Virus record (IMG/VR): IMGVR_UViG_3300042400_000444
From: a virus
Lineage: Duplodnaviria > Heunggongvirae > Uroviricota > Caudoviricetes
Length of the DNA stretch: 64,000 bases
Direction: 5' to 3' (one strand)
Every line of letters begins with the position of its first letter. Position 1 is the stretch's first letter. The translations under genes were made by a program, and so were the position numbers. The notes under the pieces were generated by a model that did not search any database, was not told where the DNA came from, and saw only the letters and a program-made list of their open reading frames with translations. Below are positions 8,818 to 31,481 of the stretch, piece by piece.

Positions 8818-10020
8818 GTGTCAACCGTTATTAACATTGTACCCGACAATTTATCAAACAGAGACTATTACTGTTCGATGAAGTTTCGTATGCTGAAAGT
8901 GGATATCGAATCGGGTACTACTTATAATTGTCATGCGGCAACTCCTCATAAAATTGATTTTAATTGGTTACGTGCTCATCCAGGACAATTATTTAATTCG
9001 GAAATTAATATAACTGAACGTCGTATGATGTTAGAAAATCAACGTAATGCTAGTTGTGAACAAAATTGTTGGCCTGCTGAGGATATAAGTGCAATCAGTC
9101 CTCGGCTTTTGCAAGAAGGCACTAAAAAAACTCATACTGAAATAATAGCATCTCCTGAAATTTTAGATTTAACTATAGGTTCTAATTGTAATTTATCATG
9201 TTCATATTGCTGTAAAGAATTTAGTAGTTCGTGGCGTAATGATATTTTACAAAATGGCGATTATTTATTAACTGATGATAATAAACGATACAGTGTGAAT
9301 TCGACAGACAGAATTCTAAACAAACTTAGTTATAATAAAATTCATAATAGTAAATCAATACAATACTTGTACAATGAAATAACTTTATGGAGTGCAGATC
9401 TTAAACAACTTGTAATTACCGGTGGTGAACCATTTCTAGATAATACTTTATTAGATATCATTGACTCAGCCAAGTCAATTCCGATAATAGAAATTTATAC
9501 AGGACTAGGAGTCAATCCTTCGAGGTTTGCTCGAATACTAAAACAATTATCATTATTTAAAAATATCATATTAATTATAAGTGCCGAGGGAATAATGCAA
9601 TTTTTGGAATTTAATCGGTATGGGATTGACTGGGAAGAATTTAAACAAAAAATAGTTCAACTTGAAAATTCTGGAATTGACTTTAAATTTCAATCTACTA
9701 TTACTAATTTAACATTATTTGGATTTGCTGACTTTTATAAATATTTTAATCAACACCGAATCGAATTAAATTTTGCTTATCAACCCAACATGATGGCACC
9801 GTATGTACTTGATCCGGCAAGTAAACAAATAATTTTAGATACACTCCAAAAAATATTGCCAGAATCGGAATTTAAAAAAATACAAATGTCGATTAATCAA
9901 ACTCCAACTAACTTGCAGAGAATTAATATAAAAGAATTTTTAACGGAATTTACAAGACGTAGACCGGATATCAGCACAGATATCTTTCCAAAGTCATTTA
10001 TAAATTGGATCAATGAATAA
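8818..10020 (+). CDS. radical SAM enzyme (paralogue A)
   Basis: CNLSCSYC is a CxxxCxxC motif. GGEPFL glycine-rich SAM motif. N-terminal C..K..CH motif shared with the ORF at 24302. GTG start immediately after the upstream stop. Confidence 0.8.
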   Translation: MSTVINIVPDNLSNRDYYCSMKFRMLKVDIESGTTYNCHAATPHKIDFNWLRAHPGQLFNSEINITERRMMLENQRNASCEQNCWPAEDISAISPRLLQEGTKKTHTEIIASPEILDLTIGSNCNLSCSYCCKEFSSSWRNDILQNGDYLLTDDNKRYSVNSTDRILNKLSYNKIHNSKSIQYLYNEITLWSADLKQLVITGGEPFLDNTLLDIIDSAKSIPIIEIYTGLGVNPSRFARILKQLSLFKNIILIISAEGIMQFLEFNRYGIDWEEFKQKIVQLENSGIDFKFQSTITNLTLFGFADFYKYFNQHRIELNFAYQPNMMAPYVLDPASKQIILDTLQKILPESEFKKIQMSINQTPTNLQRINIKEFLTEFTRRRPDISTDIFPKSFINWINE

Positions 10021-16122: not shown

Positions 16123-18192
16123 TTAACATGAACTAATAGGGATATATTTTTTCTCTTTAGCAGTTTGTTCTAATAGTAGTTTATTTTTTGCTCGGGTCTC
16201 GGAAGAGATAGTTTCGATACAGTTATCGACCCAGCCAGATTGACTTTCGGTAACAATAGTAGCATGAGTACTTTCTTTAGTCCAATAACCAGTACCGGCC
16301 CACTCAAAGTTAAAACTTTTAGTACCAGTCATCCATGGTTCGCCGGGGTGTACTAGTTTGTGTGTAAAGTTACCTGAGAATTTACCAGCATCGTCAATTT
16401 TAAATTGAATAGTATATGCGTGGTCGTCACAGGCTAACATAGATCCGAATTCTGCATGGTCTATTTGTTTATCGGCTGTTTGATTAAATTCAAACCCGCC
16501 TTTGATTAACCATACCATTCTAAGGAAATGCCATATTTCGTTAACGATGCTATTAGCAAATGGTCCTAAGTTAGTGTTAATGATATTAAAATTAAATTCT
16601 TCGTTATCTATAGTGTCAACTGCATATGATGGATTATTAAATTCTATATTATAAAAATTTAATAAATTTGGTCTGTAATGACCATTTATAATATAATCGC
16701 CGTGCTGTTTGCACAGCGTCAACCAGATATTAAGTAATTTTAATCTTATAAGTTTAGATGCTTTATTGTTAGACCAATCCAACGACCACCACCAACCTTC
16801 GTAACGATTATCGGTGGGGCTTACGTCGTAGCGTTGGCGGTTAAATCCGAAATCAGATTGGTCGTTATCGCCAAAGGTCATACCTGGAGATATAACTTGA
16901 ATATTATTTCGATTGTTCCATAGCAACGATAAACTATGTGCAGATGCAATGGCATCTTCATTAGGAAATCCAACAATCCAGTTAACTAGTACCATAATGT
17001 TAGCAGATCTACAATCTTTAAGATTATTGTTAATTTCGTCAAGTGTGATTTTTTTATTCATTAAGTCTAGTACTTTTTGACTACCACTTTCGACCCCAAA
17101 ACTTAGATGTTCGCAACCACTTTGTTGCAACTCAATGAAATAGTCAAGGTCCATACGTCCGTCGCATCGAGCATAACCCATCCATCGGATGTGTAATTGT
17201 TTTTCGATTACTCCTGATGCAAATGCACGTAGTTCTTTAAGATTGCCATTTACGAGGCTGTCGATGAACCATAACGTTTTTACACCGTATGTTTTTACTT
17301 GAAATTCAACTTCGTCTAACAGCGTATGTGCTTGCCTATCGCGAAATTTCCAGAACCAAGTTTCTGTACAAAAACTACATTGGGCAACACACCCCCTGCT
17401 TAGTTCTGCACTGACACCATTGGACGTTTTGTAAATAGATAAATCGTAATCTGTGTAATCGGGCATTGGCAACGTATCTAGATTAAGTCTGGTATTACTA
17501 TACGTTGCTCCTAGTTTAACAGGCATTTCAATGTTGTTTTCGATATTATCTAATATATCTAGGATAGCTTGTTCGCCTTCGCCAGTTACCCAATGGTCAA
17601 CTCCGTCCATTGGTACAAAATGTGGGTCGTGGCATGAGGGCCCACCGACAATAATTTTTATATTAGGTAATCGTTTTTTTAATTCGGCAATTACAAATTT
17701 AGTTGGTTCGATGTTTGTATCGTATAAGCTAAAGCCTACAACAGTTGGGGAACTATCGATAATTTGTGATATGTATTTGATTAGGTATGGGTGTAGTGTA
17801 GGATGGAGTTTTTCATAATAGTCCAACCCTAACCACCACCAGTATTTTGCAGAATCCCATGCATCATCTAAATTAACAGATTTTAACTCGCGATACAATT
17901 CTCCGTTAAAATCGAATATGCTAGTAGCATATCCAGCGGCACGGGTTACAGCACTTAACCTAGCTAAATTATATGGAGGAAAATAAACACCCCAGCACCC
18001 TAATAGGCAGAGAGTAAATTTAATTTTTCGGGTAGCTGTAGTGGTTTGTAAATTTTGAAAATTCCTGCGTTGCCGAGGCACAGCATCTTGATCTTGTTTG
18101 GTTAATAAATTTTCAGCAATCCAGGCGTGTTTATCGGGGATGTCGGGTTGAGTAGTCATACAAATATTTATAGTAATAAAAGAGGTTGACAA
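16123..18192 (-). CDS. B12-binding-domain (class B) radical SAM enzyme
   Basis: 689 aa. SRGCVAQCSFC is a CxxxCxxC motif. The preceding Rossmann-like VVGFSLYDT...IIVGGP is typical of the cobalamin-binding domain of class B rSAMs. The only large minus-strand gene in the window. Confidence 0.85.
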   Translation of the reverse strand: MSTSFITINICMTTQPDIPDKHAWIAENLLTKQDQDAVPRQRRNFQNLQTTTATRKIKFTLCLLGCWGVYFPPYNLARLSAVTRAAGYATSIFDFNGELYRELKSVNLDDAWDSAKYWWWLGLDYYEKLHPTLHPYLIKYISQIIDSSPTVVGFSLYDTNIEPTKFVIAELKKRLPNIKIIVGGPSCHDPHFVPMDGVDHWVTGEGEQAILDILDNIENNIEMPVKLGATYSNTRLNLDTLPMPDYTDYDLSIYKTSNGVSAELSRGCVAQCSFCTETWFWKFRDRQAHTLLDEVEFQVKTYGVKTLWFIDSLVNGNLKELRAFASGVIEKQLHIRWMGYARCDGRMDLDYFIELQQSGCEHLSFGVESGSQKVLDLMNKKITLDEINNNLKDCRSANIMVLVNWIVGFPNEDAIASAHSLSLLWNNRNNIQVISPGMTFGDNDQSDFGFNRQRYDVSPTDNRYEGWWWSLDWSNNKASKLIRLKLLNIWLTLCKQHGDYIINGHYRPNLLNFYNIEFNNPSYAVDTIDNEEFNFNIINTNLGPFANSIVNEIWHFLRMVWLIKGGFEFNQTADKQIDHAEFGSMLACDDHAYTIQFKIDDAGKFSGNFTHKLVHPGEPWMTGTKSFNFEWAGTGYWTKESTHATIVTESQSGWVDNCIETISSETRAKNKLLLEQTAKEKKYIPISSC

Positions 18193-18339: not shown

Positions 18340-19020
18340 TATTAAAGCACATTGTGAAGCACTATGTAAATAGTATCACGAGGGCCATGTAGTGAGAAGG
18401 CAGTAGCCAAGTCTGGGAAGGCAACTTGTTCGGGATGGAGTCTATAGGTAGGAAGTCATGATCCTACTGGACCGAGTCAGCAAGTCATACGTAGGTTCAA
18501 ATCCTACCTGCTAACATAATGTTTCACAGTGTGCTTTAATATGGTAGTATCAGTTATATGTGAGTCATACACGGGACTGGCGTAAGAAACACATTGGGGC
18601 TCGGAACCCCTGCACATATAACACAATGACACAAAGGTAGTTGCAATCTACCCGGCGTGGTCGCAGACGTATACGGTCTTTTCCGTTCAATTCGGAGTGT
18701 TATTGGATATACCATATAAAAACACATTCTTCAAAGAATACAGGGTTCAATTCCCGGCCGTTGATCACGGAACTGCCAAGGTGGTGAGTGTGTTTCTATA
18801 TGGTAGTAATGGCAGAGGCAAGGATTAATTACCCATGCTGAGCGACCTGGAAGCGGGTGGACAAACGTGACTGTGGGCCACTAAGGTAGTCAACATTACT
18901 CGCCATATAAAAGCACACTTAATGCGTAGGCCACGCAGAGTCATGGATGATAGCATTGCCCCGTAAGGAGCAGTGTCGGTGGGTTCAATTCCCGCATAGT
19001 GTGTTTCTATATGGTTATAT
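18336..19020 (+). repeat. non-coding block with three nested pairs of ~25-bp inverted repeats flanking short tRNA-fragment-like segments
   Basis: Arm consensus ACCATAT(A/T)AAA(G/A)CACA / TGTGTTTCTATATGGT. Plus-sense arms at 18336, 18708, 18903; reverse arms at 18520, 18781, 18993. No ORF of 60 aa or more on either strand. Confidence 0.5.
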
Positions 19021-19874: not shown

Positions 19875-19948
19875 TCCGGTGTAGTATAATGGCAGTGCGA
19901 CGGTCTCCAAAACCGTTAGTGGGGGTTCGATTCCCTCCACCGGAGCCA
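19875..19948 (+). tRNA. tRNA-Trp (anticodon CCA)
   Basis: Acceptor TCCGGTG/CACCGGA, anticodon arm ACGGT-CTCCAAA-ACCGT, T-loop TTCGATT, CCA. Confidence 0.7.
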
Positions 19949-19962
19949 GTTTCAAATAGTGG

Positions 19963-19991
19963 TTGACAGCAAATATCAAAAATGCTACACT
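19963..19991 (+). promoter_or_regulatory. sigma70-type promoter inside the tRNA island
   Basis: TTGACA-N17-TACACT. Confidence 0.5.
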
Positions 19992-20021
19992 ATATAGATA
20001 GTAACAAATAAGTAAATGGAA

Positions 20022-20074
20022 GAAAGCCGTAACAATATGTATTCGAGGTTAGGAGAGTACGGCAAACCGTCCAA
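20022..20074 (+). ncRNA. conserved 52-nt structured element, copy 1 (second copy at 23301)
   Basis: GAAAGCcGTAACAaTATGTATTCGAGGTTAGGAGAGTACgGCAAACCG. The GCCGTA/TACGGC stem covaries with GCTGTA/TACAGC in copy 2. Could alternatively encode a 14-15-aa peptide MYSRLGEY(G/S)KP. Confidence 0.4.
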
Positions 20075-20168
20075 GGGTAGCTGATGCCTGTGGTGCAACT
20101 CCACCGTTGAAATCAGTCATGATTCTGCACATGATAACAGGCCTGTATTTGGCCGCAGAACTTTTATC

Positions 20169-20242
20169 GCGGTGGTGGGCTAATTGGCAAGCCGTAGGGC
20201 TCATAACCCTGAGACGAGGTTCGAATCCTCCGACCGCAACCA
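20169..20242 (+). tRNA. tRNA with CAT anticodon (Met/Ile2 class), slightly non-canonical
   Basis: D-arm GGCT-AATTGGCA-AGCC, anticodon arm TAGGG-CTCATAA-CCCTG, T-loop TTCGAAT. Acceptor GCGGTGG/CGACCGC has one G-G mismatch. 3' ACCA. Confidence 0.5.
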
Positions 20243-20260
20243 AATACACAGGGGAATAAC

Positions 20261-20428
20261 ATGGCAATTAAAAAAGCAAACTCAATGACTACACGTACAG
20301 GCAAACCTAGACTAGGTCCACTGAATTTAACCCAACTAAATACATTGTTGGATAAAACTAGCAAAGGTAAAGATAAAGCAAAACTCCGTAATAGAATTGC
20401 TGTATTGGAATCACGCTTAGTTAAATAA
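20261..20428 (+). CDS. small basic protein (55 aa)
   Basis: RBS CAGGGGAATAACATG. K/R-rich. Confidence 0.35.
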   Translation: MAIKKANSMTTRTGKPRLGPLNLTQLNTLLDKTSKGKDKAKLRNRIAVLESRLVK

Positions 20429-20434
20429 GTTTTT

Positions 20435-20519
20435 GCCGGGTTGCGCCGAATGGGATGGCACCTGACTTGTAATCAGGCTTCGTAAGATAGAGAGTGTTCG
20501 ATTCACTCACCCGGCACCA
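20435..20519 (+). tRNA. type-II-architecture tRNA (long variable arm, 3-bp D-stem) with apparent TGT (Thr) anticodon
   Basis: Acceptor GCCGGGT/ACCCGGC perfect. Anticodon arm CCTGA-CTTGTAA-TCAGG. Variable arm CTTCGTAAGATAGA. T-arm GAGTG-TTCGATT-CACTC. CCA. 85 nt. Confidence 0.55.
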
Positions 20520-20524
20520 GTAAT

Positions 20525-20599
20525 GCCCAGTTAGCAGAGTGGTAATGCGCCTCACTTGTAATGAGGATATCGGCGGTTCGATTCCGTCACTGGGCACCA
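20525..20599 (+). tRNA. tRNA-Thr (anticodon TGT)
   Basis: Acceptor GCCCAGT/ACTGGGC, anticodon arm CCTCA-CTTGTAA-TGAGG, T-arm GGCGG-TTCGATT-CCGTC, CCA. Confidence 0.7.
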
Positions 20600-20607
20600 A
20601 GTATTAA

Positions 20608-20692
20608 GCCTCTTTGGTGGAATTGGTATACACGTTGGTCTTAGAAGCCAATGCTGAAAGGCTTGAGAGTTCGAGTCTCTCAGGGGGCACCA
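20608..20692 (+). tRNA. tRNA-Leu (anticodon TAG), type II
   Basis: Acceptor GCCTCTT/AGGGGGC (G-U pairs), anticodon loop CTTAGAA, long variable arm, T-arm GAGAG-TTCGAGT-CTCTC, CCA. Confidence 0.65.
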
Positions 20693-20749
20693 AAAAATTT
20701 TATAGAGTAAAGTCTGATCGGTAAATACCCGTACAACGGAGATAAATTT

Positions 20750-21493
20750 ATGTTTGAATGGTATTGGGCGTTTGTATTCGGGTATATAGTACATACTATA
20801 ACAGTAATTGTAGTTTCAATTTTCCTGCATCGAATGTATGCACATAAGCACTTGTTATCCACGCCGGCATTTGATACAATGAGTCGAATTTGGTTATGGA
20901 TGGTAGGCGCATATTGGCCTAAAATTGCAAGAATATTTGCAGCAGTGCATAGAAAGCACCATGCTATGCCGGACACACTAGATGATCCACATACACCATG
21001 GATATATTCATGCCGTGAATTATTATTTCCTACGACAGACAGGGAAAAAGGCAAAGCATATTACATGCCGCCTGAAGAAAGAGATAGTATTGCAGGTGAT
21101 GTACCGGCATTCGATGATAAGTTGGATATATTCTTAATGAAGTATCTACCATACAGTAAGATACCATTGGTATTAGTATTCTTAACGTTATTTTCATGGC
21201 AAGGTGCTATAATTGGGTTTGTGTGGTTAACTATATCTCGGTACAGCGGAAGATTACATAATTGCGTATCGCACAAATATGGATATAGATGGCAACCAGC
21301 AAAAACAGAAGGTGACCGTTCAGTAAACTGCTTACCGATTGGGTTAGTATTCGGCGGTGAGGAATTAGGAGCCAATCATCATGATTATCCAGATTTGGTT
21401 AACTTTGCAATTAAGTGGTACGAATTTGATACAGGGTGGTATGTTGTTAAAGTATTAGAATTTTTTAAATTAGTAAAAATTGTTAAATCTTAA
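20750..21493 (+). CDS. membrane fatty-acid desaturase (stearoyl-CoA desaturase-like), paralogue 1
   Basis: His boxes HRMYAH, HRKHH(AMPD), NHHDYP. Hydrophobic N-terminal segments. Confidence 0.65.
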   Translation: MFEWYWAFVFGYIVHTITVIVVSIFLHRMYAHKHLLSTPAFDTMSRIWLWMVGAYWPKIARIFAAVHRKHHAMPDTLDDPHTPWIYSCRELLFPTTDREKGKAYYMPPEERDSIAGDVPAFDDKLDIFLMKYLPYSKIPLVLVFLTLFSWQGAIIGFVWLTISRYSGRLHNCVSHKYGYRWQPAKTEGDRSVNCLPIGLVFGGEELGANHHDYPDLVNFAIKWYEFDTGWYVVKVLEFFKLVKIVKS

Positions 21494-21638
21494 AGAAAAA
21501 ATTGCGAGTATGGTGGAATTGGTATACACAGTAAATGGTTGGAAATACCAATGGGTCAGCAAATAAAGGTAAACCCAAAAGTGAAGAGCATAAGAAAAAG
21601 ATTGCTGAATCAATAAAACAAAAATATGCTACAAGAAA

Positions 21639-21723
21639 TGCTCCGATGGCGTAATTGGTAGCCGCAATGGACTTAAAATTCATTATCGAAAGGTGTCCCG
21701 GTTCGACTCCGGGTCGGAGCACC
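21639..21723 (+). tRNA. tRNA-Leu (anticodon TAA), type II
   Basis: Acceptor GCTCCGA/TCGGAGC, anticodon arm ATGGA-CTTAAAA-TTCAT, long variable arm, T-arm CCCGG-TTCGACT-CCGGG, CCA. Confidence 0.7.
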
Positions 21724-21823
21724 AGAGTTTAGTTGCACAGTAAAAACACGAGTGATGGTGTGCGGGTTCAAATCCCGGTGGGGAGGTAAAAGCTCCCGGC
21801 TGCACTCAGACTAACAGTTTTAA

Positions 21824-21897
21824 AGCGGGATTAGTTTAATGGCAAAACTGGAGTTTTCCAAACTTCTGTCATCAGTTCGATTCTGATATCCCGCTCC
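21824..21897 (+). tRNA. tRNA-Gly (anticodon TCC)
   Basis: Acceptor GCGGGAT/ATCCCGC, D-arm GTTT-AATGGCA-AAAC, anticodon loop TTTCCAA, T-arm ATCAG-TTCGATT-CTGAT, CCA. Confidence 0.75.
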
Positions 21898-22173
21898 AAA
21901 CACTAGCTTTACACTTTGCGCTTTATCGAAAGTGGGTAATTGGCAATACCATAGCGCCAGGGCACACACGATGGTCTAGACCATGCCACAAGTCCCATTG
22001 CCGGGAGCCTTGAAAGTATCGTGGGTTATTTGTTGTTATATCCAAAAGATAACAGCTGGACAGGGTAACTACTCAGTTCTGGGCTAGGTGGTGCTAGTAG
22101 CAGAACACTTTACACTACAGCAATGTAGACGAACAGTATATATTATAGATTTACAAATTAGATAAGAAGTAAA

Positions 22174-22249
22174 TGGGGGTGTAGCTCATTTGGGAGAGCG
22201 CCTGCTTTGCAAGCAGGATGTAGCAAGTTCGATCCTTGTCACCTCCACC
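22174..22249 (+). tRNA. tRNA-Ala (anticodon TGC)
   Basis: Acceptor GGGGGTG/CACCTCC with G3-U70, D-arm GCTC-ATTTGGGA-GAGC, anticodon arm CCTGC-TTTGCAA-GCAGG, CCA. Confidence 0.75.
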
Positions 22250-22255
22250 ATATTA

Positions 22256-22331
22256 TAGGAGATTAGCTCATTTGGTAGAGCAGTGCCCTTACAAGGCAAA
22301 GGCGACTGGATCGTAACCAGTATCTCCTACC
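22256..22331 (+). tRNA. tRNA-Val (anticodon TAC), unusual T-loop ATCGTAA
   Basis: Acceptor AGGAGAT/ATCTCCT, D-arm GCTC-ATTTGGTA-GAGC, anticodon loop CTTACAA, T-arm ACTGG-ATCGTAA-CCAGT, CCA. Confidence 0.6.
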
Positions 22332-22345
22332 AGTTTTAAGTTTTA

Positions 22346-22424
22346 TTCCGCAGAATCCGAGCTAGGCGCACGGACTTGACTGTTAATCAATGATTAGCTG
22401 GGTTCGAATCCCAGATGCGGAGCC
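22346..22424 (+). tRNA. tRNA-Asn (anticodon GTT)
   Basis: Acceptor TCCGCAG/ATGCGGA (6/7), D-stem TCCG/CGGA, anticodon loop CTGTTAA, T-arm CTGGG-TTCGAAT-CCCAG, CCA. Confidence 0.6.
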
Positions 22425-22482
22425 AATATTATTTGGTAGAGCAATAGACTGAGCTAAATAAACATATAACGGAGTTATTGAT

Positions 22483-23106
22483 ATGTTTACTTGTGTGTAT
22501 TGTTCTAAAGTATGTAAAAATGATAATAGTCATCGAAATCATGAAAGACAATGTCCTAAAAATCTTAACAGGATTTATAAAAATGGAATGACTGGTAAAA
22601 CGGCATGGAACAAAGGACTTACAGTTGCTACTGATGAACGAGTGGCTAAAAATGCTATAGCAATTAAAGCAAATGCTAAAGAAATTGGTAAATGTAAAGA
22701 TCCAGAGAAGGAAGTATTACGTAGACAAAAATTGTCAATCGCTGCAAAAAGAAGCGGATTTGGCGGATACAGAGAAAACGCAGGACGCAGTAAAAAATTT
22801 AGAGTGTTAGATTCTTACGGTAAAGAAACAGTTTTACAAAGCACATATGAATTAAAGTGTAGTGAAATATTAAATGAGTTGGGCATTGAATGGATTCGAC
22901 CCAAAGCATTAAAATATGATAATAAAAATTATTTTGCGGACTTTTACTTACCTAAGATAGATATGTATCTTGATCCTAAGAATAGTTATAAAGCAAGATT
23001 AGATTTAGAAAAAATAAACAAAGTTATAGAACAAAATAATGTTAAAGTTGTAATCTTATTAGAAGAACACCTAACATTAGAACATATTAAACAGCTCTGT
23101 AGTTAA
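22483..23106 (+). CDS. putative homing-endonuclease-like protein (zinc finger plus NUMOD-like segment)
   Basis: N-terminal CVYCSKVCKNDNSHRNHERQC zinc finger. GKTAWNKGLT is NUMOD3-like. AT-rich gene inside the tRNA island. Its 3' end overlaps the start of tRNA-Ile. Confidence 0.4.
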   Translation: MFTCVYCSKVCKNDNSHRNHERQCPKNLNRIYKNGMTGKTAWNKGLTVATDERVAKNAIAIKANAKEIGKCKDPEKEVLRRQKLSIAAKRSGFGGYRENAGRSKKFRVLDSYGKETVLQSTYELKCSEILNELGIEWIRPKALKYDNKNYFADFYLPKIDMYLDPKNSYKARLDLEKINKVIEQNNVKVVILLEEHLTLEHIKQLCS

Positions 23107-23166
23107 ATGGTATAACGGACGCTTGATAAGCGTTTATTACAAGTTCAATTCTTGTCAGAGCTACCA
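23093..23166 (+). tRNA. tRNA-Ile (anticodon GAT)
   Basis: Acceptor AGCTCTG/CAGAGCT, D-arm GTTA-AATGGTA-TAAC, anticodon arm GACGC-TTGATAA-GCGTT, T-arm ACAAG-TTCAATT-CTTGT, CCA. First 14 nt lie inside the upstream CDS. Confidence 0.7.
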
Positions 23167-23300
23167 AGTATTCCAACCGCATCACGTTTAGGGTGAAGTA
23201 GGGCGTGTTAACAAAACCCTGTAAGATCAAAAATACCTATCAAGGCAAGGAGGAATCACAGCGCAAGCTGAAGACGACTGCGGTGACTTGCTAAAAGGGA

Positions 23301-23353
23301 GAAAGCTGTAACATTATGTATTCGAGGTTAGGAGAGTACAGCAAACCGCCCAA
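23301..23353 (+). ncRNA. conserved 52-nt structured element, copy 2
   Basis: GAAAGCtGTAACAtTATGTATTCGAGGTTAGGAGAGTACaGCAAACCG. Compensatory C>T/G>A relative to copy 1 preserves the 6-bp stem. Confidence 0.4.
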
Positions 23354-23476
23354 CTCATAATACACCAGACCTCAACCTCGCAAGAGACAATTCTGGTTCC
23401 GCTGACGCGAAAAGAGGATGGGCTGCGCTCACGGGGTTTGTTAGGTTCCTGTCACATGAATACCTAACACTTATTT

Positions 23477-23564
23477 GGAGGATTGGCTGAGTGGTTTAAG
23501 GCAGCAGTCTTGAAAACTGTCGAGCTGAAAGGCTCCGTGAGTTCGAATCCCACATCCTCCGCCA
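23477..23564 (+). tRNA. tRNA-Ser (anticodon TGA), type II
   Basis: Acceptor GGAGGAT/ATCCTCC, anticodon arm GCAGT-CTTGAAA-ACTGT, variable arm CGAGC-TGAAAG-GCTCCG, CCA. Confidence 0.65.
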
Positions 23565-23569
23565 AATAC

Positions 23570-23598
23570 TTGACAACGTTCTAAAACGGTGTTATAAT
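23570..23598 (+). promoter_or_regulatory. sigma70-type promoter
   Basis: TTGACA-N17-TATAAT. Confidence 0.55.
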
Positions 23599-23618
23599 AG
23601 TTTTATAGTAAGAAATTA

Positions 23619-23712
23619 GGAGAGCTGGCCGAGTGGTCGAAGGCACTTCCCTGCTAAGGAAGCATACGGGCTTAACCCTGTATCGAGGGTTCGAATCTCA
23701 CCGCTTCCGCCA
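23619..23712 (+). tRNA. tRNA-Ser(GCT)-like with non-pairing acceptor stem (possible pseudogene)
   Basis: D-arm and anticodon arm CTTCC-CTGCTAA-GGAAG, long variable arm, T-loop TTCGAAT. The 5' end GGAGAGC does not pair with the 3' end CGCTTCC. Ends GCCA. Confidence 0.35.
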
Positions 23713-23730
23713 ATTTTATTAAGGACTGAT

Positions 23731-24147
23731 ATGTTGCGCACTGTGGTATTATCGTTGGCACTTTTGTTTACAATTACAGCACATGCTGAAGATTGGGCAG
23801 TAGTAACTGATTCGGGTGATGGAGTACGTTTAATTGCTGATGTTGAATCAGTAAAGGTTAAAGAATACAAAAAAGGTACTAAAAAAGGTACAGGTATATT
23901 TGTCAATATGCAATATGTAAACACCGACCTTATATTTGTATCTGCTATTGATGTTGAAGAATGCTTATTAAAGCAACGTGGCACATTAATTAATGCTTAC
24001 CCAAGCGGTGAATCCAATACATACTTTTGGGACATTAGCGGTGGCAAGATGTATGATGCACAAGGGCAATGGTTATGCGGTGCTGTATATGGCATACTTA
24101 AAAATAATAAAAAACAACCAAAACCTAAACCTAAAGTAACAATGTAA
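23731..24147 (+). CDS. secreted hypothetical protein (signal peptide)
   Basis: N-terminal MLRTVVLSLALLFTITAHA signal. 138 aa. KPKPK C-terminal tail. Confidence 0.45.
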   Translation: MLRTVVLSLALLFTITAHAEDWAVVTDSGDGVRLIADVESVKVKEYKKGTKKGTGIFVNMQYVNTDLIFVSAIDVEECLLKQRGTLINAYPSGESNTYFWDISGGKMYDAQGQWLCGAVYGILKNNKKQPKPKPKVTM

Positions 24148-24301: not shown

Positions 24302-25642
24302 ATGAACGATAATAAAAAAATATGGCCTATTAAATCAGAGACATCGTGCTATTTAAAATGGTCATGGAGCACTATTTTCCTCACTAAAGGTACCACAGCC
24401 AGTTGTCATCGAACTGTACATTCAGATATTGATATTAATAATTTTAATAATTTTCATAATACTCCAAAAAAATTAGATGATCGAAAGCGTATGCTAGCTG
24501 GCAACTGGCCGGAAGAGAGCGAGTCTGATAAATTTGGAATTCCTGGATGTACTTATTGTAAAGATATAGAAGATCATGGTGGCACAAGTGATCGTACAGT
24601 GCAATTACGTCATCTCGAAGCAATGAGTGCAACACAAAATAATATATTGCCCGTAGAATTATTAACAGATCCAACAGCAACGGAAGTAACTCCTACAATA
24701 ATTGAAGTTTATTTTAATAATGTGTGCAACATGGCTTGTTTGTACTGCGGCCCTCATTTTAGTACTATGTGGGAAGAAGAAAATCGGAGATTTGGCATTA
24801 CAGAAGACGACGGTATATTAAATACACCGTTATGGAAACGTAATCCTACTCAATATAGTACGTTGCGTGATGGACTATTTACTTGGTTACGTGAACACGG
24901 AGATAAGATTTGGAACTTCGGTATGTTAGGTGGCGAACCTTTCTTCCAACAAGAATTTGACATGGTATTAGATCATTGGGAAAATTATCCTAATCCAAAT
25001 TTACTATTAACTATAGTTAGTAATTTAAAAATAGAACATACTCGATTTGTTGGTTACATTCAACGATTAAAACGTATGGTAGAAACTGGTAAGATTAAAA
25101 AATTAAATCTTAGTGCTAGTTTAGATTGTTGGGGACCCCCAGCAGAATATATTAGATGGGGATTAAATCTAATAGAGTGGGAGAAGAATTTTAATTATCT
25201 AGCACAAGCGGGGTTCGATGAATGGATTGTTTTGAATGTCAATATTACCATCACTCCATTAAGCATAAGGACATTGCCGGACTTGATTTATAAATTAAAC
25301 GAATTGGATAAACTTAGAGACCCAACACGTCATATTTGTATTAGTTTTATGCACGTTAATTCGCCGACACAACTAAACCCATTATGGTTTGGTGCTGGTG
25401 TATTTACAGAAGATATGATTAAGGTAGTGGATGCAATGCCGACAGGAACACAATACCAGCGTGATTATAAAGAATATATGCAAGGTATTGCTAACAGTAT
25501 AGAACAGACTCCACGAAATCCTGCCGCTATTCTTATGTTAGAAACATATCTAAATGAAATGGACCAGCGCAGGGGAACACATTGGCCAGAATTATTTCCG
25601 TGGCTAGTGAGACAATTTGAGTTAGCCCATTCGGAAATATAA
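24302..25642 (+). CDS. radical SAM enzyme (paralogue B)
   Basis: CNMACLYC is a CxxxCxxC motif. GGEPFF. N-terminal SCYLKW...ASCH motif shared with the ORF at 8818. 446 aa. Confidence 0.8.
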   Translation: MNDNKKIWPIKSETSCYLKWSWSTIFLTKGTTASCHRTVHSDIDINNFNNFHNTPKKLDDRKRMLAGNWPEESESDKFGIPGCTYCKDIEDHGGTSDRTVQLRHLEAMSATQNNILPVELLTDPTATEVTPTIIEVYFNNVCNMACLYCGPHFSTMWEEENRRFGITEDDGILNTPLWKRNPTQYSTLRDGLFTWLREHGDKIWNFGMLGGEPFFQQEFDMVLDHWENYPNPNLLLTIVSNLKIEHTRFVGYIQRLKRMVETGKIKKLNLSASLDCWGPPAEYIRWGLNLIEWEKNFNYLAQAGFDEWIVLNVNITITPLSIRTLPDLIYKLNELDKLRDPTRHICISFMHVNSPTQLNPLWFGAGVFTEDMIKVVDAMPTGTQYQRDYKEYMQGIANSIEQTPRNPAAILMLETYLNEMDQRRGTHWPELFPWLVRQFELAHSEI

Positions 25643-25785: not shown

Positions 25786-25876
25786 GCTCCTGTAGTTTAA
25801 CGGTAAAACAGCGGGCTTATACCCCGTAACAACAGATAATTGGCTGATCAAGGTTCGAATCCTACCACTTCCGCCA
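25786..25876 (+). tRNA. tRNA-like (apparent TAT anticodon, 21-nt variable region) with non-pairing acceptor ends
   Basis: D-arm GTTT-AACGGTA-AAAC, anticodon arm GCGGG-CTTATAC-CCCGT, T-loop TTCGAAT. The 3' tail CACTTCCGCCA has no complementary 5' strand. Confidence 0.3.
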
Positions 25877-29020: not shown

Positions 29021-29057
29021 TGTATAATACGTATATACTAAACAAATGGAGTATGTA

Positions 29058-31481
29058 ATGAAAAAACTTTTATTAGTACTATCGCTAGTAACAGCCGTTA
29101 TTAGTCAACCGATTTATTCTGCACCACTAACCCCTGCACAAATAGCAATAGCGGCAGAAGAAGTTAGGGTTGCACAAGCGGCCGCAACAGCGGCGTGGAA
29201 TGCAAATTATGCGGCAATTTTAGCAGAAAATGCCCGACAAGTCCAACTTGTCTACGGCACACCGGCAGCAGTTGCTCCTGTAGCAGTTGCTCCAACCTTA
29301 ACTCCAGCACAGATTGCGGCAGAAGAAGTTAGAGTTGCGCAATCTGCTGCGGCTGCAAAGGCAGCGGCAAATTATGCGGCAATTTTAGCAGAAAATGCCC
29401 GACAGGTTGCACTAGTTTACGGCACACCAGTTGTTGCTCCGGTAGTTGTTGCTCCAAAAGTTGTTCCTGTAGTTGTTGCTCCGCTAAATTTTGTCGGACT
29501 ACCTATACTTCCACAATACGACACCCCAGAGCTTACAGCTAATAACATTTCGCCAGGCAAGACTAACGACAACGTGTTGAATGTAATTAACGCCGAGTAT
29601 GCTTGGTCACGTGGTTACACAGGTAACGGCAGTACCATTCTTATTATTGATAGTGGTATTAACGCGAATCATAAAGAATTTACTGGCAGTATTGGCTTTA
29701 CAAAAGACTTTATTAACAGCAAGTATGGCATAGTTGATGTACAAGGACACGGTACTGCGATGGCAGGTATTGCGGCCGCAAACTACGACGGGGTGGGTAT
29801 GGCAGGTGTTGCACCAGATGCAACATTAGCTATTGCTAAAGTAACAGACAACACAGCATTTAACTTTTCACAAGCTCGTAATGCGTTAAAGTGGGGAGAT
29901 AGTATTGGTGCAGTTGTGGCTAATATTAGTGCTAATACTACATATGATGCTACTTATATTAAAAATATGGTTAAGCTAAGTGATGGCAACTATACCAACA
30001 CTGACCCACGTTATATTGGCAAGTACTTTATGGATGAGGACCCTAAATTGTGGGCAAAATCATTAAGTCCTAATATGGTTATTGTTAATAGTGCAGGTAA
30101 TGGCGGATATGCTTATTCGTATCAGCCCGGTACACTTGCTACCGCAGTTGATGCAAATGGTAAGTTGATATTAGGTGGGCAAATGCTTATCGTTGGCTCT
30201 TGGGATACTGGTACTAACAACATTGCTAGCACCAGTAATAAAGCAGGTAGTATTTGTAAAATTGTAGTAAATGGTGTATGTGGAGATGCATACAAAGTAA
30301 GTGACTTCTTTATTATGGCACCGGGTAATGTATTTGCTCCAAGTAAAACAGGAACAGATGTTTATGCTATTAGTACCGGTACAAGTGAAGCGGCCGCAGT
30401 AGTGTCAGGTAGTGTAGCAATTATTCACCAAATGTGGCCACAAATGACAGCGGCTAACATAGTTAAGTTATTGCTAGTAACAGCAAACAAGGATTTGCCT
30501 AACTACAATGTAAACGTAATGGGACAAGGTTTGTTGGATTTAGAAAAAGCAACCCGTCCAGTTGGTGTACTTGGTATCCCAACAATTGGTCGCACAGGCG
30601 TTACTGCTACATTAGGTACATTTACAACTAGTACATCAGCTGGGTTATCTGCGCTGAATACTAAATTAAGTAGTGTGATGACACTTGATTCGTTTGGGCG
30701 TGATTACTATGTAGACATGTCACAAGCAAGTAATAACAAAACACCACGTGTTGCGTTTAATCCAATTACTAACGCAAGTTTTTACGAAGATTACAATCCG
30801 TACAATAAATTAACTTACTTTACAAACAACGGCAAGTTACAGTCGGGTGAATATGATATTAAGTTAAGTATGAACGAATATACTTCGCAAGCAATGGCTG
30901 AGATTGGTAAAACAACTAAGTTCGGCGATATGACTAAGATGCGTATAGGTTTTGGGTCATTAAATGAGCGTAACGCTTGGACTGGTAATAGTATTAGTGG
31001 TGCTTTGGGTACAGTTGATAGCAGTTACACGACATATACTAATATCGGTGGTGTACATAACTTGAATAAGAACGTTAGTGTATTTGGCACAATGTGGCTT
31101 GGTGTTACGCAAGCCAATCTACAACAAAGTGGCTTGATTACTAATGTAGGTGATACACAAAGTTATAGCTGGAACATTGGGTTAAATTACACTAAAGATA
31201 AGCATAGCGTTGGCACAACAGTTAGTCAGCCAATGACAGTATATAAAGGTACAGTTGATGTTGCTATCCCAGTTGGCTTAACTGCTAACGGCGCAGTGGC
31301 ATATGACCGTTCAACAGTAAGCATTACACCAAACGTAAATGAATATGACTTTGGTGCGTATTACAAATACAAAACAGCATCGTTAAACTTAATTGCTTAC
31401 GGTGAACATCAAATGAACTATCTAAATCAACAAGGTGTTACCAACAAACAAGTTGGATTGGGGATAGTAAAGAACTTTTAA
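29058..31481 (+). CDS. secreted subtilisin-like serine protease (S8) with N-terminal tandem repeats and C-terminal beta-barrel/autotransporter-like domain
   Basis: Signal peptide MKKLLLVLSLVTAVISQPIYSA. Two ~55-aa tandem repeats (LTPAQIA..AEEVRVAQ..ANYAAILAENARQV.LVYGTP). Catalytic triad motifs IIDSGI, HGTAMAG, GTSEAAAVVSG. The C-terminus has alternating beta-strand pattern ending ...GIVKNF. Start refined to ATG 29058 (ORF from 29046). Confidence 0.7.
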   Translation: MKKLLLVLSLVTAVISQPIYSAPLTPAQIAIAAEEVRVAQAAATAAWNANYAAILAENARQVQLVYGTPAAVAPVAVAPTLTPAQIAAEEVRVAQSAAAAKAAANYAAILAENARQVALVYGTPVVAPVVVAPKVVPVVVAPLNFVGLPILPQYDTPELTANNISPGKTNDNVLNVINAEYAWSRGYTGNGSTILIIDSGINANHKEFTGSIGFTKDFINSKYGIVDVQGHGTAMAGIAAANYDGVGMAGVAPDATLAIAKVTDNTAFNFSQARNALKWGDSIGAVVANISANTTYDATYIKNMVKLSDGNYTNTDPRYIGKYFMDEDPKLWAKSLSPNMVIVNSAGNGGYAYSYQPGTLATAVDANGKLILGGQMLIVGSWDTGTNNIASTSNKAGSICKIVVNGVCGDAYKVSDFFIMAPGNVFAPSKTGTDVYAISTGTSEAAAVVSGSVAIIHQMWPQMTAANIVKLLLVTANKDLPNYNVNVMGQGLLDLEKATRPVGVLGIPTIGRTGVTATLGTFTTSTSAGLSALNTKLSSVMTLDSFGRDYYVDMSQASNNKTPRVAFNPITNASFYEDYNPYNKLTYFTNNGKLQSGEYDIKLSMNEYTSQAMAEIGKTTKFGDMTKMRIGFGSLNERNAWTGNSISGALGTVDSSYTTYTNIGGVHNLNKNVSVFGTMWLGVTQANLQQSGLITNVGDTQSYSWNIGLNYTKDKHSVGTTVSQPMTVYKGTVDVAIPVGLTANGAVAYDRSTVSITPNVNEYDFGAYYKYKTASLNLIAYGEHQMNYLNQQGVTNKQVGLGIVKNF

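What the first reader, a model, noticed from the sequence alone, without database searches (positions are those of the whole stretch)
20022..23353. Duplicated 52-nt element with a compensatory base-pair change
GAAAGC[c/t]GTAACA[a/t]TATGTATTCGAGGTTAGGAGAGTAC[g/a]GCAAACCG occurs at 20022 and 23301, each ~100 nt upstream of a tRNA and just downstream of a promoter or purine-rich tract. The C>T change on the 5' side is matched by G>A on the 3' side, preserving a GCYGTA/TACRGC helix, which is evidence for selection on RNA structure. It also contains an ATG starting a conserved 14-15-aa micro-ORF (MYSRLGEY[G/S]KP...), so a leader peptide or riboregulator is equally possible.
Basis: seen in the sequence. 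Interest (0 to 1): 0.6.

Follow-up and report, generated by a model that had tools for sequence, protein, structure and literature searches.

The report
Pseudoknotted small RNA in phage tRNA arrays
The two repeats are copies of a previously uncatalogued 57-nucleotide pseudoknotted RNA that uncultured phages carry inside their tRNA gene arrays; its shape is strongly supported by evolution, it is not a tiny protein gene, and what it does is still unknown.

Summary
The repeat is real. It spans 62 nt at 90% identity (20013-20074 and 23292-23353), and chance expects no copies. With about 100 related viral and metagenomic contigs (38 distinct versions, 46 contexts), it resolves into an RNA fold on the + strand: P1 - AGAAA - P2 - 26-nt loop - P2' - A - PK' - G - P1'. 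Four loop bases pair with the 3' side of the internal loop to form a pseudoknot.

- **Structure:** 96% of cells pair, and 13 of 14 pairs show compensatory double changes. Register-shift controls pair at 26-46%. The pseudoknot occurs in three complementary versions: GGUU/AACC, GCAU/AUGC and GGGA/UCCC.
- **Conservation:** most of the 29 unpaired bases never vary.
- **Micro-ORF:** refuted. The ATG is absent from 13 of 28 distinct cores.
- **Known families:** no Rfam 15 family matches. The motif was not found in GenBank phages or in 185,579 bacterial and archaeal species genomes.
- **Context:** the element sits between tRNAs with tRNA-like spacers, or directly after sigma-70-type promoters.

My best reading is a self-contained structured RNA that is co-transcribed with tRNAs, is probably released by tRNA processing, and acts through an invariant binding pocket. 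A new small self-cleaving ribozyme, or a cis-regulatory aptamer, remains possible. Function is inferred, not shown.

The parts
19963..19991 (+). Sigma-70-type promoter (TTGACA-17-TACACT, with TG before the -10) that drives copy 1
   Evidence: 10 of 12 consensus matches. The same promoter is conserved upstream of orthologous copies in L002, L004, L006, L015, L070, L086 and L111.
20017..20073 (+). Copy 1 of the pseudoknotted RNA module. P1 is 20017-20020 / 20070-20073. J1/2 (AGAAA) is 20021-20025. P2 is 20026-20031 / 20058-20063. Loop L1 (ACAAUAUGUAUUCGA) is 20032-20046. The PK 5' strand (GGUU) is 20047-20050. L2 (AGGAGAG) is 20051-20057. A is 20064. The PK 3' strand (AACC) is 20065-20068. G is 20069.
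   Evidence: covariance model hit of 87.6 bits; pair counts.
20037..20084 (+). It is judged not to be a gene.
   Evidence: The start codon is absent in 13 of 28 distinct homologous cores. Differences between the two copies inside it are non-synonymous.
20074..20167 (+). A 92-nt conserved structured module between copy 1 and the tRNA. It is a separate unit with a T-arm-like hairpin and two further hairpins.
   Evidence: conserved in 11 versions, with compensatory changes in the hairpin stems seen by eye. Absent from most other copies of the element.
20168..20242 (+). tRNA-Met(CAT) downstream of copy 1. By eye it is initiator-type (C1/A72 mismatch, GGG/CCC in the anticodon stem).
   Evidence: the initiator features were read from the sequence.
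23093..23166 (+). tRNA-Ile(GAT) upstream of the copy 2 unit
23167..23296 (+). A ~130-nt conserved structured domain that precedes copy 2. It has closing stems, an AGGGU/ACCCU stem and a CAGC-GCAA-GCUG hairpin.
   Evidence: seven distinct versions, 25 predicted pairs, three with compensatory changes.
23297..23351 (+). Copy 2 of the pseudoknotted RNA module. P1 is 23297-23299 / 23349-23351. J1/2 is 23300-23304. P2 is 23305-23310 / 23337-23342. L1 is 23311-23325. The PK 5' strand is 23326-23329. L2 is 23330-23336. A is 23343. The PK 3' strand is 23344-23347. G is 23348.
   Evidence: covariance model hit of 90.1 bits; pair counts.
23352..23476 (+). A ~122-nt conserved module between copy 2 and tRNA-Ser. 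It is a separate unit.
   Evidence: five nearly identical versions (window, L009, L021, L074, L078), always between the element and a tRNA-Ser.
23477..23564 (+). tRNA-Ser(UGA) downstream of copy 2

Best explanation
The two repeats are two copies of one uncatalogued small RNA module of about 57 nt, read on the + strand.

**Shown: the fold**
- An outer helix P1 (3-6 bp) and an inner helix P2 (6 bp) enclose a 26-nt loop.
- Four bases of that loop (GGUU) pair with AACC on the 3' side of the internal loop between P1 and P2, forming a pseudoknot.
- Only one base separates P2 from the pseudoknot strand, and one base separates that strand from P1.

**Inferred from that connectivity**
- P1, the pseudoknot and P2 can stack into one rod of about 14 bp.
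- The three nearly invariant single strands (AGAAA, AC-N8-UUCGA and AGGAGAG) must then run along its grooves.

**Shown: the context**
- The module is co-oriented with phage tRNA genes.
- It lies either directly after sigma-70-type promoters or between two tRNAs, with spacers like ordinary inter-tRNA spacers.
- It is not a coding micro-ORF.

**Inferred: how it works**
- It is transcribed as part of tRNA precursor transcripts.
- It is set free, or at least given its 3' end, by the enzymes that trim its neighbours: RNase P at the 5' end of the next tRNA, and 3' trimming of the previous one.
- It then works as a folded RNA whose invariant pocket binds a specific partner, either a small ligand or a protein of translation or tRNA metabolism.
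- It does not work through base-pairing to a target or through a peptide.
For: **Structure**
- In 38 distinct versions, 96.1% of cells pair and 13 of 14 pairs have changes on both sides. No shuffle reached the observed values, and sliding the partners by 1-3 columns gives 26-46% pairing.
- P2 occurs as GCCGUA, GCUGUA, CCUGUA, GCCGAU, GCCGGU, GCUACU, GCUAUG, GCUAUU, GUCCGU, GUAACU and GUCGCA, each with the matching 3' strand.
- I predicted the pseudoknot from the sequence before testing it. A scan that left both strands free then returned GCAU/AUGC (subfamily B, five distinct versions) and GGGA/UCCC (subfamily C, an orthologue of the copy 1 locus). Every version pairs fully.
- Ten versions have a U-G pair in P1, which would be a C-A mismatch on the other strand. 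This supports an RNA read from the + strand.

**Conservation without ascertainment bias**
- Scans that left AGAAA, AC and AAACCG free still returned them unchanged.
- Relaxing AGGAGAG to ANNNNNG gave only chance hits without helices.
- The covariance model shows a gap between 77-90 bits for members and below 15 bits for everything else in 380 kb.

**Context**
- In 46 distinct contexts the flanking tRNAs are on the same strand.
- 16 contexts have the next tRNA 1-9 nt away, and 13 have the previous tRNA 4-19 nt away. The modal inter-tRNA spacer in the same arrays is 5-9 nt.
- Promoters lie directly upstream in several independent contexts.
- The same arrays also carry tmRNA genes, another trans-acting RNA matured by tRNA-processing enzymes.

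**Against the peptide reading**
- The ATG is missing in 13 of 28 cores.
Against: - No expression, processing or binding data exist, so every functional step is inferred.
- The module has no tRNA-like acceptor end of its own. Its release depends on its neighbours.
- In at least one contig (L064) it sits in the 5' untranslated region about 35 nt before a protein ORF, with no tRNA within 10.9 kb. That fits a cis-acting role or a ribozyme better than an excised trans-acting RNA.
- In this window both copies are followed by about 92 and 122 nt of other conserved RNA, so the mature species here could be larger than the module.
- The pseudoknot covariation comes from two, perhaps three, evolutionary events rather than many.
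- Part of the invariance of UUCGA and AGGAGAG in subfamilies B and C was imposed by the search patterns.
- The near-total invariance of unpaired bases is just as typical of a catalytic core.
Confidence: 0.42

Rival explanations
1. It is a new class of small self-cleaving ribozyme. It would cut the polycistronic tRNA transcript, or the 5' leader just after a promoter, defining RNA ends independently of host nucleases. The scissile bond would most plausibly lie in the invariant AGAAA strand opposite the pseudoknot, by analogy with the twister layout.
For: - The size is about 57 nt, with a pseudoknot between a hairpin loop and the 3' strand of an internal loop, stacked between P1 and P2.
- Most unpaired bases are invariant while the helices vary freely.
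- There are several copies per genome, two in this window.
- The contexts are scattered: between tRNAs, after promoters, and once in the 5' UTR of an ORF. This is typical of self-cleaving ribozymes.
- There is a precedent for ribozymes that process phage tRNA transcripts: theta ribozymes (PMC10879173).
Against: - No known ribozyme family matched, even at E<=10 on 176-321-nt sub-windows or at E<=10 on a 3.8-kb sub-window that covers both copies.
- No known ribozyme was found elsewhere in the window or in 140 kb of related arrays, so there is no ribozyme-with-ribozyme association.
- RNase P already makes the adjacent cut 1-9 nt away, so no processing need is evident.
- The resemblance to twister is recalled from memory and concerns topology only.
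- Catalysis cannot be tested here.
Confidence: 0.22
2. It is a cis-acting regulatory aptamer. One version is a riboswitch whose ligand-stabilised P1 controls the fate of the RNA just downstream, for example access of RNase P to the tRNA 5' end 1-9 nt away. Another version is a promoter-proximal RNA that modifies the transcribing RNA polymerase, acting as a put-like antiterminator through long untranslated arrays.
For: - The conservation pattern is aptamer-like, with a short P1 that varies in strength (3-6 bp).
- It is the first structured element after a sigma-70-type promoter in at least six independent contexts: the copy 1 type, L001, L013, L064, L072 and L078.
- It always lies upstream of and co-oriented with what follows.
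- There is one 5' UTR context about 35 nt before an ORF.
- In 16 contexts P1 ends 1-9 nt before the tRNA cleavage site.
Against: - There is no terminator-like hairpin or start-site sequestering element downstream. No + strand terminator was found in 19900-23750.
- What follows is inconsistent: tRNA-Ser, fMet, Pro, Ile or Leu, other RNA modules of 90-125 nt, or ORFs.
- Many copies lie mid-array, 4-19 nt after a tRNA.
- From my own recollection, put RNAs are two plain stem-loops, not a pseudoknot.
Confidence: 0.18
3. It is a purely structural module with no specific partner: a compact pseudoknot that protects transcript ends from RNase E or 3' exonucleases, or that insulates neighbouring tRNAs from misfolding.
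For: It lies at the 5' ends of transcripts and between tRNAs. The stacked three-helix fold is compact.
Against: A stabiliser or insulator needs stable helices, not about 23 invariant unpaired bases maintained across lineages in which every helix has been rewritten. The predicted stability of the nested helices alone is unremarkable (z-scores -0.3 to -0.8).
Confidence: 0.1
4. It is a leader peptide or micro-ORF (MYSRLGEY...).
For: An ATG followed by 14-15 codons exists in both window copies, and 15 of 28 distinct cores keep the ATG.
Against: - 13 of 28 cores have AAG, ACG, AGG, ATA, AGT or AGA instead of ATG.
- The two differences between the window copies inside the ORF are both non-synonymous and both compensatory in RNA helices.
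- Peptide similarity ends where the RNA fold ends.
- Codon third positions are not preferentially variable. Variation tracks base pairs.
Confidence: 0.02
5. It is a DNA-level repeat: a recombination or homing-endonuclease target, a miniature mobile element end, or a protein-binding operator.
For: There are two copies in a region rich in homing-endonuclease-like ORFs and shuffled tRNA cassettes. The element occurs in varied neighbourhoods.
Against: - The compensatory changes include a pseudoknot, which has no meaning in duplex DNA.
- U-G pairs are tolerated on one strand only.
- There are no terminal inverted repeats or target-site duplications, and similarity ends exactly at the P1 boundaries.
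Confidence: 0.03

Closest known systems
GOLLD and ROOL RNAs (large ornate RNAs of phages and prophages, often near tRNA islands)
   Same: They are phage-encoded structured non-coding RNAs found next to or inside tRNA arrays. They are probably co-transcribed with tRNAs, contain pseudoknots, and have no known function (PMC5737381; PMC12286853).
   Different: They are about 580 to more than 800 nt long, form multimeric cages and have Rfam models. This element is about 57 nt, and those models gave no hit in the window or in related loci. No sequence or structural homology was found.
Bacteriophage T4 species 1 and 2 RNAs (rnaC, rnaD)
   Same: They are small stable non-tRNA RNAs encoded at the end of the phage tRNA cluster, co-oriented with the tRNAs. 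Their function is still unknown (PMC9697503).
   Different: They are 139 and 119 nt. By eye, rnaC ends in a tRNA-like T-arm. The covariance model of the present element scores at most 10.6 bits anywhere in the T4 tRNA region with filters off. They are therefore analogous, not homologous.
Theta (minimal HDV-like) ribozymes next to phage tRNAs
   Same: They are small pseudoknotted RNAs embedded in phage tRNA transcripts, with a role in tRNA end formation (PMC10879173).
   Different: From my own knowledge, theta ribozymes have the nested double pseudoknot of HDV-like ribozymes (P1, P1.1, P2, P3, P4). The paper reports them adjacent to viral tRNAs, where they process the 3' trailer. Here only 7 nt and 1 nt lie where the P3 and P4 hairpins would have to be. 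The element is as often 5' of a tRNA or at a transcript start, and no HDV-family Rfam model matches.
Twister self-cleaving ribozyme
   Same: The topology is similar. A hairpin-loop segment pairs with the 3' strand of the internal loop between P1 and P2, so that the pseudoknot stacks between the two helices, opposite a short conserved purine-rich 5' strand. The size and the degree of core conservation are also similar. This is recalled from memory and is a lead only.
   Different: There is no second pseudoknot, no P4 and no twister core sequence. No twister model hit appeared even at E<=10. Cleavage is untested.
Small pseudoknotted riboswitch aptamers (preQ1, SAM-II, fluoride, guanidine-III type)
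   Same: They are 35-70 nt long with an H-type pseudoknot, freely covarying helices and invariant single strands lining the grooves, as expected for a binding pocket.
   Different: No Rfam riboswitch model matches. No expression platform was found. The element is associated with tRNA arrays rather than with genes of one metabolic pathway.

Membership tests
Leader peptide / micro-ORF | Conserved start codon | tested here: not met
   ATG is present in only 15 of 28 distinct cores. AAG, ACG, AGG, ATA, AGT or AGA occur in the rest.
Leader peptide / micro-ORF | Substitutions biased to synonymous sites, and a conserved peptide length | tested here: not met
   Both in-ORF differences between the window copies are non-synonymous and pair-compensating. 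The ORFs are 15 and 14 codons long and diverge after the RNA fold ends.
Any Rfam 15 family (riboswitches, ribozymes, sRNAs, leaders) | Covariance-model score at or above the family's gathering threshold | tested here: not met
   Only tRNA hits were found in the whole window. At E<=10 on sub-windows of 3.8 kb, 321 nt and 176 nt, nothing meaningful overlapped the element; the best was snR50 at 16 bits against a gathering score of 45.
tRNA / tRNA-like gene | Cloverleaf recognised by ARAGORN or the Rfam tRNA model | tested here: not met
   Neither tool calls the element. The covariation-supported fold is P1-PK-P2, not a cloverleaf.
HDV-like / theta ribozymes | Nested double pseudoknot with P3 and P4 hairpins between the crossing helices | tested here: not met
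   Only 7 nt (AGGAGAG) and 1 nt (A) occupy the positions where P3 and P4 would be. No Rfam hit.
HDV-like / theta ribozymes | Location directly 3' of a tRNA so that cleavage makes the tRNA 3' end | tested here: inconclusive
   13 of 46 contexts have a tRNA 4-19 nt upstream. Many others have a promoter or a ~130-nt domain upstream.
Twister ribozyme | P1 - pseudoknot T1 - P2 stacking topology | tested here: inconclusive
   The same connectivity is supported by covariation. The comparison with twister rests on my memory of its published structure, not on a test.
Twister ribozyme | Conserved twister core, second pseudoknot (T2) and P4 | tested here: not met
   No twister model hit at E<=10. The loop contains no further covarying helix.
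Self-cleaving ribozyme (any class) | Site-specific self-scission in vitro | not testable with these tools
   Needs transcription and incubation with Mg2+.
Riboswitch (generic) | Aptamer with covarying helices and invariant junction or loop bases | tested here: met
Riboswitch (generic) | Expression platform (terminator/antiterminator or start-site sequestration) coupled to P1 | tested here: not met
   No terminator-like site on the + strand in 19900-23750. In most relatives the next feature is a tRNA 1-9 nt away.
Riboswitch (generic) | Specific ligand binding | not testable with these tools
   Needs in-line probing, ITC or similar.
T4 rnaC/rnaD-type stable RNAs of tRNA clusters | Encoded in, and co-oriented with, a phage tRNA cluster | tested here: met
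T4 rnaC/rnaD-type stable RNAs of tRNA clusters | Sequence or structure homology to rnaC or rnaD | tested here: not met
   The covariance model R2 scores at most 10.6 bits anywhere in the T4 region, with filters off.
GOLLD / ROOL | Match to the large ornate RNA models; size above 500 nt | tested here: not met
   No hit in the window or in 140 kb of related arrays. The element is about 57 nt.
put-type antiterminator RNA | Promoter-proximal position in the transcript | tested here: inconclusive
   True for the copy 1 type, L001, L013, L064, L072 and L078. Not true for mid-array copies.
put-type antiterminator RNA | Makes RNA polymerase resistant to terminators | not testable with these tools
   Needs transcription assays.

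The most novel reading that the evidence does not exclude
The module is a new class of small functional RNA core. It would be either a self-cleaving ribozyme with a twister-like P1-pseudoknot-P2 layout, or a ligand-binding aptamer that gates the maturation of the adjacent tRNA by controlling RNase P access 1-9 nt downstream of P1. The second case would be a riboswitch acting on tRNA processing rather than on an mRNA.
Probability: 0.3. Interest if true: 0.85.

Novelty: new variant of a known kind. Interest (0 to 1): 0.6.

Why it matters
Phage tRNA arrays are known to hide non-tRNA RNAs whose roles have resisted explanation for decades, such as T4 rnaC/rnaD and GOLLD/ROOL. This element is a small, tractable addition to that group.

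- It is about 57 nt long, and covariation supports every helix, including a pseudoknot that was predicted first and then confirmed.
- Most of its unpaired bases are invariant across phages with genomes or contigs of up to about 360 kb.
- That pattern is the signature that has previously led to new riboswitch and ribozyme classes.
- Its size makes self-cleavage assays, in-line probing and structure determination immediately feasible.

If it binds a translation or tRNA-metabolism factor, or a metabolite, it would reveal a new way in which phages manipulate or monitor host translation. If it is catalytic, it would be a new ribozyme class. If neither holds, it is still a clean new RNA family suitable for Rfam and a useful marker for a clade of uncultured freshwater-type large phages.

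Tried and rejected
**Tool-use errors (mine)**
- The first covariance model, R1, and the first pair count used a P2 register that was off by one column. I discarded both. The corrected structure was used.
- One viral scan was wasted because the pattern had 8 Ns where 7 were needed.

**Searches that found nothing**
- Megablast of window 19900-23700 returned only an 85-nt tRNA-Ser match, and blastn of window 20000-20170 returned nothing, among 50,697 GenBank phage records.
- A degenerate pattern scan of 185,579 GTDB species genomes gave 8 hits. None had the helices, and all were rejected by the covariance model.
- The covariance model search of 380 kb of related loci found no diverged extra copies.
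- Relaxing loop L2 gave only chance hits.

**Ideas rejected**
- The micro-ORF.
- A tRNA-Ser-specific leader. Subfamily B precedes tRNA-Pro, Ile or Leu, or an ORF.
- Homology to T4 rnaC, despite a shared AUUCGAGG / GCCGUAA.
- Resemblance to the RNase P RNA S-domain, the 23S GTPase-centre or sarcin-ricin loop, and the c-di-GMP-II aptamer. These short similarities were recalled from memory, fall partly in the variable P2 strand, and are unsupported by Rfam.
- An HDV-like fold, whose topology is incompatible.
- A small hairpin inside the variable 8-nt part of the loop, which is not maintained across variants.
- An alternative pairing of the P1 5' strand with the tRNA-Ser acceptor 3' strand, which is inconsistent across loci.

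**Could not be checked**
- The Fremin et al. 2023 catalogue of 8,495 unnamed IMG/VR candidate RNAs (PMC10690425). Its supplements are not held, so the motif may already be listed there anonymously.

**Weak lead**
- Protein co-occurrence analysis found only a PF04308 RNase H-like protein near copies of subfamilies A and B.

Full report
**Observation.** None of 100 dinucleotide-preserving shuffles produced a match. The ungapped repeat is 62 nt long, 20013-20074 versus 23292-23353, at 90% identity. A pairwise alignment shows that similarity stops abruptly on both sides.

The window is a phage tRNA region. It holds 27 tRNA genes, all on the + strand, interspersed with small ORFs. Copy 1 lies about 25 nt downstream of a promoter, TTGACA-17-TACACT, at 19963-19991, and 94 nt upstream of a tRNA-Met that by eye is an initiator tRNA. 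Copy 2 lies between tRNA-Ile (ending at 23166) and tRNA-Ser(UGA) (starting at 23477).

Of the six differences between the copies, four form two compensatory pairs. The other lies in an outer helix (20020 A - 20070 U versus 23299 G - 23349 C).

**Relatives.** The phage is uncultured.
- Megablast of the 3.8-kb stretch 19900-23700 against 50,697 GenBank phage records found only an 85-nt tRNA-Ser match. blastn of window 20000-20170 found nothing.
- A virion protein is less than 30% identical to proteins of jumbo phages such as PA5oct.
- The terminase is of the T4 type.

Pattern scans of IMG/VR and of JGI metagenome contigs brought in about 100 contigs, some from contigs of up to 359 kb. They give 38 distinct 70-nt versions in 46 distinct genomic contexts. 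A degenerate scan of 185,579 GTDB species genomes returned eight hits. All lacked the helices and were rejected by the covariance model. On present data the motif is therefore phage-specific.

**Secondary structure.** Across the 38 versions:
- The inner helix P2 is rewritten many times, always with its complement: GCCGUA, GCUGUA, CCUGUA, GCCGAU, GCCGGU, GCUACU, GCUAUG, GCUAUU, GUCCGU, GUAACU and GUCGCA. All six pairs covary and 96.9% of cells pair.
- The outer helix P1 (core of 4 bp, 3-6 bp in individual sequences) covaries at all four pairs.
- For the whole structure, 96.1% of cells pair and 13 of 14 pairs have changes on both sides. No shuffle out of 500 reaches the observed values. Sliding the 3' partners by 1-3 columns drops pairing to 26-46% (earlier versions).
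- Ten versions have U-G in P1. On the opposite strand this would be C-A, so the structure belongs to the + strand transcript.

**Pseudoknot.** Thermodynamic folding of the nested helices alone is unremarkable (z-scores -0.3 to -0.8). I noticed that loop bases GGUU could pair with AACC in the 3' junction.

I tested this with a scan that left both tetranucleotides free. It returned a subfamily B with GCAU in the loop and AUGC in the junction. A further scan returned a subfamily C with GGGA and UCCC. Subfamily C is an orthologue of the copy 1 locus, with the same promoter, the same downstream module and tRNA-fMet. The four pseudoknot pairs are formed in all 38 versions, and three of them covary.

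Only one base separates P2 from the pseudoknot strand, and one base separates that strand from P1. The three helices can therefore stack as P1-PK-P2. The strands AGAAA (5 nt), AC-N8-UUCGA (15 nt) and AGGAGAG (7 nt) must then run along the grooves. This last point is an inference from connectivity.

**Conservation of unpaired bases.** Twenty-three columns are invariant and six more are at least 90% conserved. Most of these are unpaired. Part of this was imposed by the search patterns, but several checks are free of that bias:
- Scans that did not constrain AGAAA, AC or AAACCG still returned them unchanged.
- Relaxing AGGAGAG to ANNNNNG added only chance hits without helices.
- Relaxing UUCGA found a single change, UUCGU in subfamily C.
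- The covariance model separates members (77-90 bits) from everything else (below 15 bits) in 380 kb.

**Not a micro-ORF.** The ATG is replaced by a non-start triplet in 13 of 28 distinct cores. The in-ORF differences between the window copies are non-synonymous and compensatory in RNA. Peptide similarity ends where the fold ends.

**Not a known RNA family.** Rfam 15 gives only tRNAs at gathering thresholds. Nothing meaningful appears at E<=10 on sub-windows. T4 rnaC and rnaD, the classical non-tRNA RNAs of a phage tRNA cluster, are not homologous; the model scores at most 10.6 bits with filters off. Related arrays contain permuted tmRNA genes but no known ribozyme or large ornate RNA.

**Context.** All flanking tRNAs are co-oriented with the element.
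- In 16 contexts the next tRNA starts 1-9 nt after P1. In 13 contexts the previous tRNA ends 4-19 nt before P1. The commonest inter-tRNA spacer in the same arrays is 5-9 nt. The element therefore occupies a slot like a tRNA gene.
- In subfamily A the following tRNA is usually tRNA-Ser (UGA or GCU) or, after a 92-nt module, tRNA-fMet.
- In subfamily B the following tRNA is tRNA-Pro, Ile or Leu. The serine link is therefore lineage history, not a rule.
- In at least six independent contexts the element is the first structure after a sigma-70-type promoter.
- In L064 it lies about 35 nt before a protein ORF on a contig with no tRNA in 10.9 kb.
- The ~92-nt and ~122-nt stretches that separate the two window copies from their tRNAs, and the ~130-nt domain before copy 2, are separate conserved modules. 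Each is found with only some copies.

**Mechanism.** Three things are shown: a conserved pseudoknotted RNA fold on the + strand, embedded in tRNA transcripts, and non-coding. The rest is inferred.

My preferred reading (confidence about 0.4) is that the module is released from the precursor by the processing of its neighbours and acts as a folded RNA whose invariant pocket binds a specific partner.

Two rivals are serious. The first is a new self-cleaving ribozyme (about 0.2). It is favoured by the size, the pseudoknot topology, the invariant core, the scattered contexts and the theta-ribozyme precedent in phage tRNA transcripts (PMC10879173). The second is a cis-regulatory aptamer or RNA-polymerase-modifying leader (about 0.2). 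It is favoured by the promoter-proximal copies and the L064 5' UTR, but weakened by the absence of any expression platform. A purely structural stabiliser, a DNA-level repeat and the micro-ORF are unlikely.

**Comparison and novelty.** The closest known things by context are GOLLD/ROOL (PMC5737381, PMC12286853) and T4 rnaC/rnaD (PMC9697503). All are orphan RNAs of phage tRNA islands, and none is homologous to this element. By architecture the closest are small pseudoknotted aptamers and the twister ribozyme, but no family test is met.

I could not check the unnamed candidate list of Fremin et al. 2023. I rate the element as a new RNA family within the known kind 'orphan structured RNAs of phage tRNA arrays'. 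It has a real chance of being a new ribozyme or aptamer class.

Noticed in passing
window 23167-23296: A ~130-nt conserved non-coding domain lies between tRNA-Ile and copy 2. It has two closing stems, an AGGGU/ACCCU stem, a possible second crossing stem (GUAGG/CCUAC) and a CAGC-GCAA-GCUG hairpin. There are seven distinct versions in related phages, with three covarying pairs. No Rfam match.
   Followed up: partly
window 20074-20167: A 92-nt conserved module lies between copy 1 and tRNA-fMet. It contains a T-arm-like hairpin (GUGG-UGCAACU-CCAC, which covaries as AUGG/CCAU, ACGG/CCGU and GCGG/CCGC in relatives), a hairpin with the conserved loop AUUCUGCA, and a GGCC hairpin. It also occurs before a tRNA-Ser in L072.
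   Followed up: partly
window 23352-23476: A ~122-nt module is nearly invariant in five versions (window, L009, L021, L074, L078). It is always inserted between the element and a tRNA-Ser. There is no covariation information and no Rfam match.
   Followed up: partly
window 20168-20242: The tRNA-Met(CAT) after copy 1 has initiator hallmarks by eye: a C1/A72 mismatch, three G-C pairs at the base of the anticodon stem, and a ...CCGCAACCA end like E. coli tRNA-fMet.
   Followed up: no
window 22346-22425: A tRNA-like sequence with a GGGTTCGAATCCC T-arm and a probable GUU anticodon loop was not called by ARAGORN. Rfam gives only a weak tRNA-Sec hit (21.9 bits). It may be an unusual tRNA-Asn.
   Followed up: no
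window 21511-21529 versus 20615-20633: A 19-nt exact copy of the 5' part of tRNA-Leu(UAG) lies about 900 nt downstream of the gene. It is followed by a short lysine-rich ORF remnant, which looks like a scar of homing-endonuclease activity or of cassette shuffling.
   Followed up: no
window 18400-18511 and 25791-25867: Rfam calls two low-scoring tRNA matches (29.8 and 32.8 bits) that ARAGORN does not report. The first spans 112 nt, so it may carry an insertion.
   Followed up: no
L007 6067-6342; L063 5821-6068: Related phage tRNA arrays carry permuted (two-piece) tmRNA genes (RF04321, 117 and 106 bits). The L007 copy also matches the betaproteobacterial tmRNA model (94.5 bits), which hints at a betaproteobacterial host.
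   Followed up: partly
L064 5089-5990 (- strand): This is the only clear non-tRNA context. A sigma-70-type promoter is followed by the element and then, about 35 nt later, a 259-aa ORF with no Pfam match. A weak glycosyltransferase-29-like ORF follows. There is no tRNA in the 10.9-kb locus.
   Followed up: partly
window 16123-18192 (- strand), 8818-10020, 24302-25642: Three radical-SAM-like ORFs lie in or near the tRNA region. One has a B12-binding domain and lies on the opposite strand inside the array. They may be nucleic-acid or cofactor modification enzymes.
   Followed up: no
window 20750-21493: A membrane-protein ORF inside the tRNA array gives a sub-threshold fatty-acid desaturase match (27.8 bits against a cut-off of 29.7) and has histidine boxes by eye.
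   Followed up: partly
loci of subfamilies A and B (e.g. L070, L077, L081-L083, window): A PF04308 'RNase H-like' (DUF458) protein of about 160 aa recurs within a few kb of the element in 18 loci, including the divergent subfamily B. It is a possible but untested partner.
   Followed up: partly
window 29202-29263 versus 29367-29428 (inside ORF 29046-31481): A 165-nt tandem duplication at 90% identity lies within the N-terminal part of a subtilase-family (Peptidase_S8) ORF.
   Followed up: no
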